Positions 4,798-10,480 of a stretch of 13,281 nucleotides of DNA are shown here, piece by piece. Position 1 is the stretch's first letter. Each line of letters starts with the position of its first letter. The notes below the pieces were generated by a model that was not told the origin of the DNA, did not search any database, and worked only from the letters and a program-made list of their open reading frames with translations. The DNA comes from Octopus sinensis (taxonomy: Eukaryota), in assembly GCF_006345805.1 (NCBI RefSeq), contig NW_021826294.1, positions 1 through 13,281 of the forward strand, written 5' to 3'. The translations under genes were made by a program, and so were the position numbers.

Positions 4798-4806
4798 TGT
4801 GTGTGT

Positions 4807-4853
<47 letters not shown>
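4798..4853. repeat. (TG)n microsatellite
   Basis: Read directly from the sequence. Confidence 0.95.
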
Positions 4854-4854
<1 letters not shown>

Positions 4855-4869
4855 ATGTCTGTGAGTAAT

Positions 4870-5460
4870 ATTTCGAACTAGTGAGTATTTCAATACTGAT
4901 GTATTGAGTAGAGCAGTTTGGGCTGCCTAATGTCATCCGCAGTCGGGGTATATTTCCGGTGGATCCACTTCAGGAATTCCGCAGTGTTAGTTGAGATAAT
5001 AATCGATTAAAGAAACAGAAGATGGAATTGGTATAACTCTTTATTTCGTACGACGATCATTTCGACCCATCCTGCGACTGGCATTAATGGGTGGGATGCT
5101 GTGCATCATATTGCCATCTGAGTCACATCAGGTACATTCATAGATAAAGTGGCGTCTCGCTAAAGATCTTGACTTTGGGCGGTCGCGTTATTTTCCCGCT
5201 TCAGTTAGGGAATGGGGTATTGGTACAATTGTCCTTATTTGTAAATATCCATAACAGATAATAGTAAATACTTGTAAATATAAACATATAAACTGTAAAC
5301 AAGAAAGAAAGAAAGAAAAAACAAAAAAAATTTTTATCAAGGAAAAGTAAATGTGAGAGGGAAAGACAGACATATAGATGCACATATATATGCGTGATCA
5401 GGTGTGAGCGATTAAGTGAGTGCGTTTATGTGTGTTTGTGAGTACGTGTGTTTATAATAA
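4870..5460 (-). mobile_element. Putative Penelope-like pseudo-LTR or retrozyme-type non-autonomous element (boundaries approximate)
   Basis: On the minus strand a pyrimidine/T-rich tract is followed by a GC-richer segment, the hammerhead motif and AATAAA. This layout is known for Penelope pLTRs. No RT or GIY-YIG coding sequence is visible. Confidence 0.45.
5047..5136 (-). ncRNA. Minimal type I hammerhead ribozyme motif with one core deviation
   Basis: Minus strand reads UGUAC-CUGAUGU-GACUCA-(49 nt)-UGGGUC-GAAA-UGAUCG-UC-GUACG. Stem I is UGUAC/GUACG, stem II is GACUCA/UGGGUC, and stem III is minimal with a palindromic GAUC loop. The cleavage triplet is GUC (cut between 5052 and 5051). AATAAA follows at 5045-5040. 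A9 of the CUGANGA box is U here. Confidence 0.75.
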
Positions 5461-6624
5461 TATCACAAATTAAAATACATTTCATTGAGTTGTTTTTCAT
5501 ATTTCTCGTTTGGTTGTATTGAAAAGTATTTCAAATTAGGTATGTAAATTCAGAGATTCTAAAAGATTTGAACACGTGTTATACATACTACAGCATTTAA
5601 TACATTAAAGATTTAAGAAGGTATTCTAACACTAGGTTAAATTTGAAAGTGACAGAGTAGAAAAATTGGAAAAATAAAAAATAAAACAACAAAAAACCCC
5701 ACAAACTATGTTTGGTAAAAAAAGAAAAGAAAAAAGAAAAGACAGAAACAGAAATACTTATTCATAAATTAAGAGGAAAGAATGACGAAATATCCGTCAG
5801 CATAAAGAGAATATAGAGAGCGGGACGTCTCGAAACGTGGACTGATTGAATCGAATGCTTAGCACAACTTGAGCCCCAAACCATATCTAAAGAAGATAAT
5901 TTTCTAGATGCAGTTAGGTGTAAGTTCATTTATCTAGTATAGAGCAAAATAGAACAGAAAAATAACGTCGAATGGATGTGTCATATATATATATATATAT
6001 ATTTTCTGTTTGCATTATTTGGTTGCCATGGGTAAAAATGGCATTGTGCTAAAGGCCAAAATTTTAGCTTTCATTTGCATAATCAACCGTGAAAATATAC
6101 CAGAAAAAGTATCAAATTTCACAAAATTTCAAGTAATTTTTGAATTATTTTTGTGATTTTACATGCACGCGTAAAAGTGCAATAATTTTGTCGACTTGGC
6201 CGCGGCCAAGCTTGCTTTGGTTATCGATTTTTTTCTCCCCTTAATCCTTTCATATTTTTCTACCAATTTGTATTCTGAATTTTTTTATGCTATTTAACAT
6301 GTAGTTAGAATAGATTTTTATAATTAAAACCAATTTTGATGTCTTCCTGACTCAATTGTTTGGGGGTTGAAGATAAGGCTACAGAAGGCTTCTTTCTAAT
6401 CGCGGGTACACGTAGGTCTTTTGGAGTGGTCATTAGCATCGCGCAGCGATGCCATCAGCTATGGAAATGATGAGAAGGAGTGGAAGAAGAGAAAGAAGAA
6501 CAAGAAGATAAAGACGAAGAAAAAATATTAAAAAATAAGAAAAAGAAAGAAGAGAACAATAAAAAGTAACTAGGCAAAGAAGACGAACAAAAGAAAGGGA
6601 AAAGGAGACAATACCACCACCAAA

Positions 6625-6754: not shown

Positions 6755-7412
6755 TTATTGGTACTGTGATCGAATGTGATTTTTTAGCCGAGCCAAAGAT
6801 CGACAATGTCTTGTACAGAATTGGCAGCTAAAACCTTTACCGGCAATAGCCAGCTGTAGTTGTTACTGGGCTTCATGTATCTTTGCATGTCGTCTAAGTC
6901 CTCCTGCCGAATTACACTCTCTTCCACATGCCCGACAGATATGATTAGTATGGTGTGTTACACCACCACCAGTTGCCAGGTTGTCACTCATCTGTCTCGT
7001 TTTATGACTACGAAGATGACTCATGAGTCCAGCTTTACTGAGGCAGAGTCTTGCACAGACACTGCATGTCAGCATCATAGGAAGACCCTTCCCATCTGGA
7101 AGTGTAACAGCGATGTCCTTCCTGACATTCCTCCTTACTTTCTCATGCGCAACTCGAGATTTCTCAAAAGTAGCTGTTCCCTCGTGCACAACCTTCTCCA
7201 CCTGCTACGATCAATAGCTATGCCCTCCCATGTGTCAGGAGAGATGCAAGCATCTCTTAAGGAAGCCTTCAGCAAGTCCTTATACCTCTTTTGGTTTATG
7301 TGGAGGTCGTTCTCCTTTAGCTAACTCTCCATAATAGAGTTGTTTTGGCATCCTTGAATCCTTCATCCTGACCTGATGACCACTCCATCTGAGACTTTGC
7401 TTTAACACTATG
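6755..7412 (-). pseudogene. C-terminal part of the RTE ORF with three C2H2-type zinc fingers
   Basis: Manual translation gives IVLKQSLRWSGHQVRMKDSRMPKQLYYGELAKGERPPHKPK / RYKDLLKASLRDACISPDTWEGIAIDRSRW, the typical RTE post-RT motifs. It continues with CSVCARLCLSKAGLMSHLRSH and CRACGRECNSAGGLRRHAKIH. Past an in-frame stop at 6865-6863 comes CQFCTRHCRSLARLKNHIRSQ, ending TAA TAG at 6757-6752. Confidence 0.9.
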
Positions 7413-9328
7413 TGCTATACTGATGACGAAAAAATTTCTTTCTACCATGCTTTGGAGGGCATTATAAGAAATATCCCTCGGGCAGACAAAGTCATCGTAC
7501 TGGGTGACTTTAATGCTAGAGTGGGTAGGGATTTTAACACATGGACTGTAATTGGAAAGCATGGGGTGGGGAAGTGTAATAGTAATGGCATGCTTTTGCT
7601 GCAGATGTGTGAGGAGCTGAGTCTGTATGTTACCAATACCATGTTTCAACGAAAGAATAAGTTTAAGACCACATGGATGCATTCTGCATCTAAAGAATGG
7701 CATATTCTGGATTACATCCTTGTTAGGGTGCGTGACAGACAGGATGTGCAGTGTGTTCGTGTTCTTCGTGGAGCTGAGTGTTGGACTGACCACCGCCTAG
7801 TACGTGCAAAAGTGAAATTAGTCACAAAACATAAAATCCGAACTGCAGGGATTACCCTGCCTAAAAGACTGAATGTTGATCGTCTTAGGTGTAATAGTGT
7901 GAAGAGAACTTTACGAGAGGAAATGAATGCTGCAGATATTGGGGAGGATTGGCCGACCCTTAAAAGTCAGTTTATGATATAGGCAAGAAAGTTCTGGGAT
8001 TGATACAAAGAAAGCATCAAGTTTGGTTTAAAGAAAATGAACATATAGATGATTTACTGGCTGATAAAAGACGTACTTTGTCATGCTATTTGTCAGCAAA
8101 GCCACAGGAAAGGGAGATGTTGCATAGGGAACTCAAGGATGTAAAATCACGTGTGAGGCAAAGACTCTCTCAGATGAGGGATACGTGGTGGTGTAAGAGG
8201 GCTGATGAGATACAGGTGGCGACGGATTCTAGTAACACAAAGATGTTGTATGGTCTTTTGCGAGAAGTTTATGGACTGACGTCTTCTCTGATGACACTAC
8301 TTCGAAGCAGGGATGGTAAAGAACTTCTTCGTGATTCACAAGGAATTCTGCGAAGGTGGCACGAACACTTTGATGAACTTTTGAATCAGCAGTCTGTAGT
8401 TAGTGAGGATGTTTTCAATCTCATCCCTGGATTACCTGTGAAGGCAGCACTTGCAGAACCTCCAAAGCTGGAAGAAGTTGCAGTGGCTGTCTCAAGGTTA
8501 AATAATGCGAAGTCTCCGGGTATGGATGACATACATGCGAAGTTGTTACAGCATGGTGGTGAGAAACTTCTGCAGAAACTTCACTCTTTGTTTGGTAAGG
8601 TATGGACTAGTGAATCTGTACCTGAGGAATGGAGAGATACAGTAATGGTGGTCTTGTATAAGGGAAAGGGCAACAGGAATGATTATGGTAATTATAGGAG
8701 AGTATCATTGCTTTCTGTCGTAGGAAAGATTTTATGCAGGATACTTCTGGATCGTCTGCTGAAACACGTTGCAGATTGTGTTCTTCCACAAAAGTCAATC
8801 TGGCTTTCGTGTGGGACGTGGCACTGTTGATATGATCTTTTCAGCTAGACAGCTTCAGGAGAAGTGTGTGGAACAAGATCTGGATTTGTATCAAGTTTTT
8901 GTCGATCTGACAAAAGCCTTTGATACCGTTAATAGAAAATCATTTTGGGAAGTCCTCCAGAAACTTGGGTGTCCTGAAAATTCCTTGCTTTGGTTAGGTC
9001 TTTTCATGAAGGGTAGGGTTAATGTTAGAGGGAAAATGTCGGTGCCCATTTCAAAACAAAATGGAGCGAAACAAGGGAATATTCTGGCACCGCCCCTATT
9101 TGCCATATATTTTGCGATGGTGTTCTGTATTGCATTCAGAAATTGCAGCATGGTGTTTACATCCATTATCGAACCTCTGTCAGCATATCAGGCGCTTTGC
9201 TGCAAAAACAAAGGTATTTATCTCTATCATAAGTGACCTTTTGTATGCAGATAATTGTGAGCTAGTAGCGCACACGGAGATTGATATGTAACACATTTTG
9301 AATGCATTCTCTGATGCTTGCACTGCCT

Positions 9329-9489: not shown

Positions 9490-9712
9490 CACATACCTAT
9501 GTTCTTTTACTTGCTTCAGTCATTTTGACTGTGGCCATGCTGGAGCACCGCCTTTTGGTCGAAGATATCGACCCCTGGACTTATTCTTTGTAAGCTTGGT
9601 ACTTATTCTATCTGCTAATTACGGGGACGTAAACGCACCAACATCGGTTGTCAAGATCGGTGGACAAACACATAAACATACACACAAATATATATATATA
9701 TATATATACATA
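9329..9712. repeat. Exact local inverted duplication with arms 9329-9398 and 9649-9712
   Basis: TTTGTGTGTATGTTTATGTGTTTGTCCACCGATCTTGACA (9359-9398) is the exact reverse complement of 9649-9688. The match continues through the TA tract, which differs only in length. Confidence 0.95.
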
Positions 9713-10480
9713 TAAGAGGGATGACCACTAAGTGGACATCCATTATGCTAGAGGTAGACCCCATATGGTCTGACCACTAAAAAAAGATTGTTCTCAAGAA
9801 AATTTAGCAAACGCGAAAACGTAAGCGAGCAAGACAAATGAAAAGATACAAAATATAAAGATTAATCAAAATATAACCCCAAATGTAATTGGTAGAACTA
9901 TATGCATGTTCAATCTCATGCAGATATCCCGTGTATAGTTCTGCAAATTATATTTTACTATGACGATCACACTGATGAACTGCGGGCATTTACGTATATA
10001 ATTATGTAAGTGTTAACAATGAGATTGGGTTTGTGATTAATCTTTATATTTTGTATATTTTCATTTGTCTTGCTCGCTTACGTCCTGGCGTTTGCTGAAT
10101 TTTCTTGAGAACAATCTTTTCTTACTGGTGAGACCATATGGGGTCTACCTCTAGCATAATAGTTGTCCACTTAGTGGTCATCCCTCTTATATGTACGTAG
10201 TATAATTTTTCTGAATCTTCAGATTTTTCAATATGCTGGGCCACTAGTTTTAAATTGATATTCATCAAATTAATATTCAATTTTTCATCCTTATATTTAA
10301 ATTTATATATATATACGACGTGCTTCTTTTCAGTTTCTGTCAACCCAATGCACTCACGAGGTTTTGGTCGGCCCGAGGTTATAGTAGAAGACACTTGCGC
10401 AAGGTGCTACGCAGTGGGAATGAAACCCAAACCATATGGTTGGGAAGCAAGCTTCACACCTCACAACGACGCCTGCGCCT
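9503..10480 (-). mobile_element. tRNA-derived SINE (octopus-type), split into a tail (9503-~9690) and a head (~10308-10480)
   Basis: The minus-strand head has degenerate A-box-like and B-box-like (GGTTTCATTCCC) motifs. Head and tail match the fragments at 331-362 and 958-1087 and an abundant octopus SINE as I recall it. About 600 bp of foreign DNA interrupts its central TA tract. Confidence 0.8.
9707..10195. mobile_element. Fold-back element with ~162-bp inverted arms (9707-9868 and 10034-10195)
   Basis: By eye the arms align without gaps and with about 10 mismatches. The spacer is ~165 bp, there is no credible coding capacity, and it is inserted in the SINE's TA tract. Confidence 0.85.

What the first reader, a model, noticed from the sequence alone, without database searches (positions are those of the whole stretch)
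5040..5136. Hammerhead ribozyme with long stem II, palindromic stem III and a CUGAUGU core
Seen: every part of a type I hammerhead is in register on the minus strand, directly followed by AATAAA. Stem II carries a 49-nt insert that can itself pair (UGGCA/UGCCA, GAUGC/GCAUC). Established: minimal type I hammerheads with palindromic stem III occur in Penelope-like pLTRs and metazoan retrozymes and are proposed to cleave as dimers. Inference: this marks a non-autonomous, ribozyme-processed retroelement family. A9-to-U and the GAAAU (for GAAAC) change are either decay or a family-wide variant core, and a variant core would be notable.
Basis: partly seen in the sequence, partly recalled or inferred. 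Interest (0 to 1): 0.75.

Follow-up and report, generated by a model that had tools for sequence, protein, structure and literature searches.

The report
Mutant-core hammerhead in Hydra retrotransposon
This is an aged fragment from the end of a protein-coding Penelope-type jumping gene whose hammerhead (self-cutting RNA) motif has an unusually long arm and, in a whole subfamily, a changed core letter that likely weakens cutting, which suggests the element kept spreading without needing an efficient ribozyme.

Summary
The type I hammerhead at 5136-5047 (minus strand) is real (0 of 200 shuffles). It is not a retrozyme: it lies in a 5'-truncated end piece of a dispersed Penelope-like element. Longer copies carry a decayed RT + GIY-YIG ORF with Hydra-clade motifs upstream, and copies end at two fixed sites, one per arm in 39 of 57 inverted pairs. 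U9 is a subfamily trait, not decay: 39 U against 57 A among 100 listed exact matches. GAAAU, the G-U in stem II and the UGGCA/UGCCA helix are private to this copy, which is predicted to misfold. Loop II is 6 nt in sister subfamilies and 62-65 nt in others, likely a decayed duplicate of the ribozyme's own 3' half. Both copying start sites lie 3' of the cleavage site, so inserted templates were uncut there; an attenuated ribozyme would cost little. Cleavage is untested. The scan noted long-armed hammerheads in such elements on other DNA before, but none with CUGAUGU. New variant of a known kind.

The parts
4862..5370 (-). 5'-truncated, single-armed copy of the 3' pseudo-LTR plus tail of a Hydra-type Penelope-like element (U9 subfamily); 5' edge approximate
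   Evidence: 70-85% identity to dispersed copies over this span; only one arm of the family in the window
5132..5136 (-). stem I, 5' strand (UGUAC)
   Evidence: same in all five subfamily majorities
5125..5131 (-). core C3-U9, CUGAUGU; U9 at 5125 is the subfamily variant
5119..5124 (-). stem II, 5' strand (GACUCA; family GACCCA, so U at 5121 is private)
   Evidence: C at this place in 42 of 50 U9 copies
5070..5118 (-). loop II insert, 49 nt here, 65 nt in most U9 copies (about 16 nt deleted); likely a decayed duplicate of the ribozyme's 3' half
   Evidence: loop lengths; alignment to the short-loop form, p = 0.0015 for the oldest long subfamily
5064..5069 (-). stem II, 3' strand (UGGGUC)
5060..5063 (-). 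core G12-A15.1 (GAAA)
5053..5059 (-). stem III and palindromic loop (family ACGAUCGU with A15.1; here C15.2 has decayed to U)
5051..5052 (-). predicted cleavage site after GUC (C17 = 5052); untested
   Evidence: hammerhead numbering; C17 in 32 of 50 U9 copies, U17 in 28 of 32 long A9 copies
5047..5051 (-). stem I, 3' strand (GUACG)
5040..5045 (-). AATAAA, kept in all subfamily majorities; candidate poly(A) signal, untested
4996..4999 (-). first fixed 3' end of the family (short end), which this copy reads through
   Evidence: 88 of 230 arms end here
4862..4995 (-). tail, about 135 nt here, up to the second fixed 3' end
   Evidence: 95 of 230 arms end at the tail end
4798..4853 (.). (TG/CA)n microsatellite, likely insertion target
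   Evidence: a microsatellite follows 55 of 95 tail ends and 57 of 88 short ends, against 85 of 668 background stretches

Best explanation
The motif is a decayed type I hammerhead inside a 5'-truncated end piece of a protein-coding Penelope-like retrotransposon with Hydra-clade motifs, and its U9 core is shared by a subfamily that kept spreading, likely because the change only weakens a ribozyme whose cut the copying step does not need. Shown: dispersed copies, two fixed 3' ends about 55 and 190-200 nt past the cleavage site, two-armed inverted insertions, microsatellite targets, an upstream RT/GIY-YIG remnant, and five subfamilies differing in loop II, loop III and positions 7, 9 and 17. Inferred: the element's own endonuclease nicks (TA)n/(CA)n DNA and its RT copies the RNA from the two fixed sites; since copies run through the cleavage site, the templates were uncut (or rejoined) there. 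Inferred: the ancestral short-loop form would cut as a dimer through the 8-nt palindrome; a tandem duplication of its 3' half made the long loop II; A9 then changed to U in one source lineage, losing the A9-G12 pair (recalled structure) and leaving slow, probably protein-assisted cutting or none. The window copy itself is likely dead.
For: Copies: (each scored only 40 candidates of 250, 59, 513). Two ends and arm asymmetry: 183 of 230 arms end at two sites; 39 of 57 inverted pairs have one short and one tail end, 1 two short ends, 0 two tail ends, the pattern described for PLEs (PMC8557442 passages; PMC11167929 text). ORF link: L242 holds an inverted U9 arm, linker + endonuclease remnant, 3' UTR, a U9 hammerhead and the tail in one run; L241 has a U9 hammerhead 1.6 kb 3' of the endonuclease; L255 holds RRMRWKA, ADKT, TLKDHK, CSCx5C, GIY-YIG, CxxC..E, CxH in order beside an inverted family arm, collinear with 630-720-aa database proteins (tblastn E down to 3e-61); these are the Hydra marks listed in PMC8557442 section 11. 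U9: 39 U, 57 A, 2 G, 2 C in the 100 of 120 matches listed, control 0; clustered on a tree with position 9 masked (7 changes against 37.7 shuffled); linked to loop III GAUC (44 of 49 against 2 of 31, p = 2e-14) and C17 (p = 5e-8); both states at near-equal depth in three independent data sets under three organism labels. Core mutants did not affect insertion in vitro for PAc (PMC11167929).
Against: No cleavage or RNA-end data. The hammerhead's 33 core and stem positions stay unchanged between the basal and derived U9 groups while about 14 of 160 other columns differ (counted by eye, p about 0.05), loop III is a perfect palindrome and H17 changed from U to C after U9 arose; this points to continued constraint and fits a working variant as well. 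The ORF in U9-linked copies is broken, so it is not shown that the U9 source encoded its own enzyme. Most endonuclease-bearing loci show no hammerhead within 1.5 kb (5 of 30 have one downstream on the same strand, 4 of 30 an inverted one). The window copy is not itself joined to an ORF. The smallest branch holding all U9 rows also holds 5 A9 rows (support 82). Pfam GIY-YIG is below its cut-off (E 0.0013) and no Pfam RT match was obtained. No tree against reference Hydra elements was built. The size of the A9U effect is recalled, not read.
Confidence: 0.72

Rival explanations
1. Working variant ribozyme: U9 with the 65-nt loop II, the perfect GAUC palindrome and the GUC site is an active dimeric (perhaps protein-assisted) hammerhead kept by selection, with the long arm or the element's protein making up for the lost A9.
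For: 0 of 33 core and stem positions differ among U9 sub-groups while flanks drift; loop III keeps its palindrome through a double change A-U to G-C between short and long forms; stem II extends by a GA/GA tandem and CUGC/GCAG in all long majorities; predicted dimer energies of U9 copies are close to two free monomers (-2.8 to +1.8 kcal/mol for 4 copies).
Against: A9 is in the consensus core (PMC3088659, PMC7151607 passages) and in all 26 Hydra hammerhead rows of PMC8557442 File S2; U9 makes a closed monomer fold 4.4 kcal/mol better than the open core, against 0.6 for the nearest A9 group; the inner loop II hairpins are not kept between subfamilies; the constraint test is borderline and copies were picked with hammerhead anchors.
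Confidence: 0.25
2. The U9 subfamily was a non-autonomous derivative (ORF already broken or partly deleted) moved in trans by A9 Hydra elements.
For: Nearly all U9 copies are short end pieces; every ORF remnant seen is broken; the one near-complete ORF (L255) sits beside an A9-type arm.
Against: Short copies are expected from 5' truncation and end at scattered places; U9 copies in L241, L242 and L203 reach the endonuclease or the UTR just behind it; A9 copies are equally short and broken.
Confidence: 0.2
3. Metazoan non-LTR retrozyme: a small non-coding repeat amplified through circular RNA.
For: Type I hammerhead in a GC-poor animal repeat; no ORF in the window copy.
Against: Only 2 same-strand repeats among the loci examined, neither a head-to-tail array; no fixed 150-450-nt monomer; coding remnant upstream.
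Confidence: 0.03
4. U9 is private decay of this copy, or the motif is chance.
For: This copy does carry private changes (U15.2, U10.4, 16-nt deletion) and is predicted to misfold.
Against: 0 of 200 shuffles; U9 in 23 of 24 flank-found copies; U ten times as common as G plus C at position 9.
Confidence: 0.01

Closest known systems
Hydra-clade Penelope-like elements and their hammerheads, e.g. Hydra-1_Obim (Craig et al. 2021, PMC8557442; passages, section 11, supplement searches and part 2 of the supplement read)
   Same: C-terminal GIY-YIG endonuclease, RWK, DKT, CxCX5C linker, CxxC and CxH around E/N, microsatellite targets, type I hammerhead near the 3' end with a short palindromic stem III.
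   Different: A different family: the listed Hydra-1_Obim hammerhead has another sequence and an 8-nt loop II. All 26 Hydra rows in File S2 have A9 and loop II of 3-10 nt; here loop II is 6 or 62-65 nt and one subfamily has U9. The 3' UTR is 1.1 kb or more with a TG-rich tract, so the element is likely longer than the <3 kb given for Hydra.
[quoted passage not shown]
   Same: Short stem I without loop 1, G10.1-C11.1, 6-bp stem II, palindromic 15.2-16.2 region, mostly single truncated copies or close opposite-strand pairs, predicted dimer use.
   Different: No extra nucleotide between 9 and 10.1 (all 100 listed matches have one base there); long loop II; the core variant described in the text read is U3-A8, not U9.
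PAc (Poseidon of Anolis; Frangieh et al. 2024, PMC11167929; parts 1-2 of 4 read)
   Same: Two fixed RT start sites 3' of the hammerhead that give a tail on some ends; uncut RNA as template.
   Different: Other clade; tail 30-40 bp there, about 135-150 here; PAc has a canonical core and its hammerhead overlaps the ORF start, which was not seen here.
Metazoan non-LTR retrozymes (Cervera and de la Pena 2020, PMC7229834; passages read)
   Same: Type I hammerhead in an animal repeat.
   Different: Retrozymes are non-coding tandem 150-450-nt repeats with canonical tertiary contacts and circular RNAs; this family is dispersed, truncated, inverted and tied to an ORF.

Membership tests
Type I hammerhead ribozyme | Three stems around the core in type I order | tested here: met
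Type I hammerhead ribozyme | Consensus core C3 U4 G5 A6 N7 G8 A9, G12 A13 A14, A15.1-U16.1, H17 | tested here: not met
   A9 is U in this copy and its subfamily; met in full by the A9 sister subfamilies. This copy is therefore filed as a hammerhead-derived variant, not a canonical member.
Type I hammerhead ribozyme | Active fold is favoured | tested here: inconclusive
   Not for this copy (stem II probability 0.004); stems I and II form in the U9 majority and stem II in 23 of 54 long U9 copies; prediction only
Type I hammerhead ribozyme | Site-specific self-cleavage | not testable with these tools
   no assay; only contigs, no raw RNA reads
EN+ Penelope-like elements | RT plus GIY-YIG endonuclease ORF upstream of the pLTR | tested here: met
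   in other copies, broken: L255, L242, L241, L209, L207, L210; not in the window copy
EN+ Penelope-like elements | 5'-truncated and inverted insertions with a tail at one end | tested here: met
   39 of 57 inverted pairs short + tail, 0 tail + tail
EN+ Penelope-like elements | Hammerhead in the pLTR | tested here: met
EN+ Penelope-like elements | Tandem pLTR-ORF-pLTR copy showing the tail running into the ORF start | tested here: inconclusive
   no copy continues past the tail into shared sequence; L244 has hammerhead + tail directly before a truncated ORF piece
Hydra clade | RWK motif and DKT in place of DKG | tested here: met
   RRMRWKA and ADKT in L255; definition in PMC8557442 section 11
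Hydra clade | CxCX5C linker; CxxC and CxH beside the conserved E and N; no CCHH | tested here: met
   CSCRDRSKC (L244), CQQCSEE and RCMH (L255), read by eye; CxCX5C in 111 of 150 and CxxC..E in 129 of 150 best phmmer hits
Hydra clade | Insertion into (TA)n microsatellites | tested here: met
   112 of 183 fixed ends followed by a microsatellite of any kind, background 85 of 668; (TA)n and (CA)n both seen
Hydra clade | Placement in the Hydra clade on an RT tree | not tested
   reference proteins were seen only in the paper's supplement and were not brought into a tree
Hydra clade | Generally short (<3 kb) | tested here: inconclusive
   ORF about 2.6 kb plus 1.1 kb or more of 3' UTR suggests about 4 kb; no complete copy found
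Metazoan non-LTR retrozymes | Tandem non-coding monomers of 150-450 nt | tested here: not met
   coding remnant upstream
Metazoan non-LTR retrozymes | Abundant circular RNA | not testable with these tools
   no raw RNA reads on offer

The most novel reading that the evidence does not exclude
A natural A9U hammerhead lineage that stayed functional: after a duplication built a 65-nt loop II, the U9 subfamily kept its core and stems, held a perfect dimer palindrome and gained a GUC site, so it cleaves as a tuned-down, protein-assisted dimer. The five subfamilies in one genome would form a step-by-step natural series for testing what the hammerhead does in Penelope-like elements.
Probability: 0.25. 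Interest if true: 0.65.

Novelty: new variant of a known kind. Interest (0 to 1): 0.42.

Why it matters
Why Penelope-like elements carry hammerheads is open (PMC8557442 says the function is unclear; PMC11167929 found core mutants insert normally in vitro). Here one family gives a natural series: short loop A9, long loop A9, long loop U9. If U9 is inactive, it is genomic evidence that an element amplified to hundreds of copies after crippling its ribozyme while keeping the fold. If it is active, it widens the hammerhead core consensus at a position treated as fixed. Either way, search descriptors with short loop II and fixed A9 miss these motifs (no Rfam match).

Tried and rejected
Rfam scan: no hammerhead match at E <= 1. 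Retrozyme, chance and private-decay readings rejected. An extra nucleotide between 9 and 10.1 was allowed for and not seen in the 100 listed matches. A scrambled (SGC-type) second cleavage strand inside loop II, a lead from earlier notes, was considered by eye and dropped: the duplicated strand no longer pairs with stem I or III. The first upstream walk was swamped by a microsatellite and its 30 loci were left out; the second gave 3 hits. I first read the ORF as Neptune from memory and changed to Hydra after reading the clade's motifs. Word-index protein searches gave little; Pfam found no RT on the broken pieces or on five long relatives; the Atlas gave no answer. RNA: no RNA holder listed; contigs cannot show ends or strand. 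The p-values for 'hammerhead conserved versus flanks' are inflated, because copies were found or anchored with hammerhead motifs and clusters were made on the other columns; only the by-eye count is used. The lower decay of core bases in single copies (11 of 196) is not used for the same reason. One dimer fold (L072) came out distorted and one (L096) failed. Lunse et al. 2017 and two hammerhead reviews were not held; figures and supplements of PMC3088659 and PMC4209133 were not seen; any of these may list an A9 variant. Searches for a natural U9 core found none; the one CUGAUGU passage is a relaxed search pattern.

Full report
Observation. On the minus strand the window holds a type I hammerhead layout: stem I 5136-5132/5051-5047, core CUGAUGU 5131-5125, a 6-bp stem II closing 49 nt, GAAA 5063-5060, a two-pair stem III with loop GAUC, C17 at 5052, and AATAAA at 5045-5040. 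A relaxed descriptor finds only this site and nothing in 200 of 200 dinucleotide shuffles of the window. Rfam does not detect it. The copy's own predicted fold is not the hammerhead: the 3' strand of stem II pairs instead with ACCCAU in the insert (probability 0.73 against 0.004).

It is a dispersed repeat. Searches of the 2.7-Gb own genome with the motif, its upstream flank and its downstream flank returned 42, 43 and 40 matches from 40 scored candidates each, 69-93% identical (self matches aside). The window copy spans about 5370 to 4862, ends at a (CA/TG)n tract and has no second arm in the window. An 18-base pattern matches exactly 120 times, control 0; at about 12% divergence that means very roughly several hundred to a thousand copies (my estimate).

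Which oddities are inherited. In 24 copies found by the upstream flank alone that reach the core (of 29 non-self loci), position 9 is U in 23 and C in 1. Genome-wide, the 100 listed of 120 matches have 57 A, 39 U, 2 G, 2 C; A totals 69 of 120. Contigs of three independent runs under three organism labels show A at 43-48% of depth there. So U9 marks a subfamily. With position 9 masked, U9 copies cluster on a tree (7 changes against 37.7 shuffled; smallest branch holding them has 50 U, 3 C, 5 A rows, support 82; 115 rows after dropping one duplicate and copies with loop II of 7-57 nt, the window copy among them). U9 goes with loop III GAUC (44 of 49 against 2 of 31) and C17 (32 of 49 against 2 of 32). 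By contrast C15.2 is the rule (37 of 50), as is C10.4 (42 of 50), so GAAAU and the G-U in stem II are private; the loop is 65 nt in most copies, and the UGGCA/UGCCA helix exists only here. Only 4 of 50 U9 and 5 of 32 long A9 copies keep the whole motif: the family is old.

A series of subfamilies. Two have a 6-nt loop II, A9, the palindrome ACAUAUGU and GUU. Two have a 62-65-nt loop, A9 and imperfect palindromes. The U9 group has the perfect palindrome ACGAUCGU; its basal part keeps GUU and its derived part, to which the window belongs, has GUC. The long loop aligns to the 3' half of the short form (p = 0.0015 and 0.008 against 2000 shuffles for the oldest long group, 0.05-0.26 for the later ones), which suggests a tandem duplication and the order short, long A9, long U9. 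All long majorities extend stem II by a GA/GA tandem and CUGC/GCAG; the inner hairpins differ between groups.

The host element. Of 230 arms, 88 end at a site about 55 nt past the cleavage site and 95 at a site about 190-200 nt past it; microsatellites follow 57 of 88 and 55 of 95 of these, against 85 of 668 background stretches; of 57 head-to-head pairs 39 have one end of each kind, 1 has two short ends, none two tails; only 2 same-strand repeats were seen (duplicate removal between overlapping loci was approximate). This is the insertion pattern of Penelope-like elements (PMC8557442, passages; PMC11167929). Walking upstream through a TG-rich tract led to coding remnants in three subfamilies. 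A search with that stretch gave 40 matches; 5 of 30 loci have a family hammerhead downstream on the same strand within 1.5 kb and 4 of 30 an inverted arm at the 5' junction; of 19 wider loci, several chosen because they lay near known copies, 9 show one downstream. L242 is a complete two-armed U9 insertion with linker, endonuclease, UTR, hammerhead and tail. L255 has a nearly whole broken ORF collinear with 630-720-aa database proteins. Its motifs RRMRWK, ADKT, CxCX5C, GIY-YIG, CxxC..E and CxH are those given for the Hydra clade (PMC8557442 section 11). Pfam support is weak (GIY-YIG E 0.0013, below cut-off) and no tree with reference elements was built.

Mechanism. Shown: the anatomy above. 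Inferred: the element's endonuclease nicks microsatellite DNA and its RT starts at two fixed sites, giving truncated and two-armed copies. Because those sites lie 3' of the cleavage site and copies run through it, the templates were uncut or rejoined there, in line with the finding that core mutants of PAc insert normally in vitro and that its ribozyme cut only with protein. An A9U change, which removes the A9-G12 pair (recalled; A9 is in the consensus core; mutations in the CUGA-G8 region gave low activity in a mutational scan, passage, which does not name A9), would then cost little. Folding adds that U9 favours a closed monomer by 4.4 kcal/mol and that predicted dimer gain falls from -7 to -9 kcal/mol in short forms to about zero in U9 copies. 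Against a simply dead ribozyme: core and stems did not change between basal and derived U9 groups while about 14 of 160 other columns did (p about 0.05 by my count), and GUC arose after U9. I put attenuated-or-idle at about 0.7 and a fully working variant at about 0.25.

Novelty. Hammerheads in PLE ends are known (PMC4209133), also in Hydra elements, where all 26 listed rows have A9 and loop II of 3-10 nt. I found no report of a natural U9 core in the searches, but Lunse et al. 2017 and several figures and supplements were out of reach. Earlier notes of this scan describe long-armed and core-variant hammerheads in Penelope-like elements of this and other genomes, none with CUGAUGU; they are unchecked and are not counted as support. 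Papers seen: PMC4209133 and PMC11167929 parts 1-2 of 4; PMC8557442 passages, section 11, supplement searches and part 2; PMC3088659 passages and section 8; PMC7229834, PMC6765202, PMC6155905, PMC9901934 (supplement list only), PMC7151607 and bioRxiv 10.64898/2026.03.07.710320 passages. Verdict: new variant of a known kind, interest 0.42.

Noticed in passing
window 6860-9291: Broken LINE remnant: endonuclease (PF14529, E 1e-5) at 7380-7982 and RT (PF00078, E 1e-13) at 8763-9236 on +, and a C2H2 zinc-finger frame at 6863-7204 on the minus strand.
   Followed up: partly
window 9707-9871 and 10031-10195: Inverted repeat with 165-nt arms, 93% complementary, 159 nt apart, beside a TA tract; MITE-like or another two-armed insertion.
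   Followed up: no
L004:1982-2600 and L247:6400-6800: Remnants of other Hydra-type elements (CxCX5C + GIY-YIG; DITMGSSDSA and GLYRDD), so the genome holds further Hydra families.
   Followed up: no
L207:895-2855 and L024 (oriented 33-620): A different PLE ORF remnant with a CxxCxxC linker and GIY-YIG (Neptune-like by eye), and a Naiad remnant resembling the Naiad proteins of the PMC8557442 supplement.
   Followed up: no
L138: Two arms in one locus differ at position 9 (A in one, U in the other); likely a reversion after insertion, picked up by my A9 pattern.
   Followed up: partly
window 5013-5464: Near-identical pieces in runs X1, X2 and X6 (three organism labels) suggest this insertion is shared between individuals or species (records 5, 13, 21).
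   Followed up: no
L096:1512: In run X1 (RNA is only a guess) all 5 contigs laid carry A9, none U9; too few and unverified to count.
   Followed up: no
L242:4967-5300, L206, L207: A TG-rich simple-sequence tract several hundred bases long is an internal part of the element's 3' UTR in all subfamilies and hides the ORF link from plain searches.
   Followed up: partly
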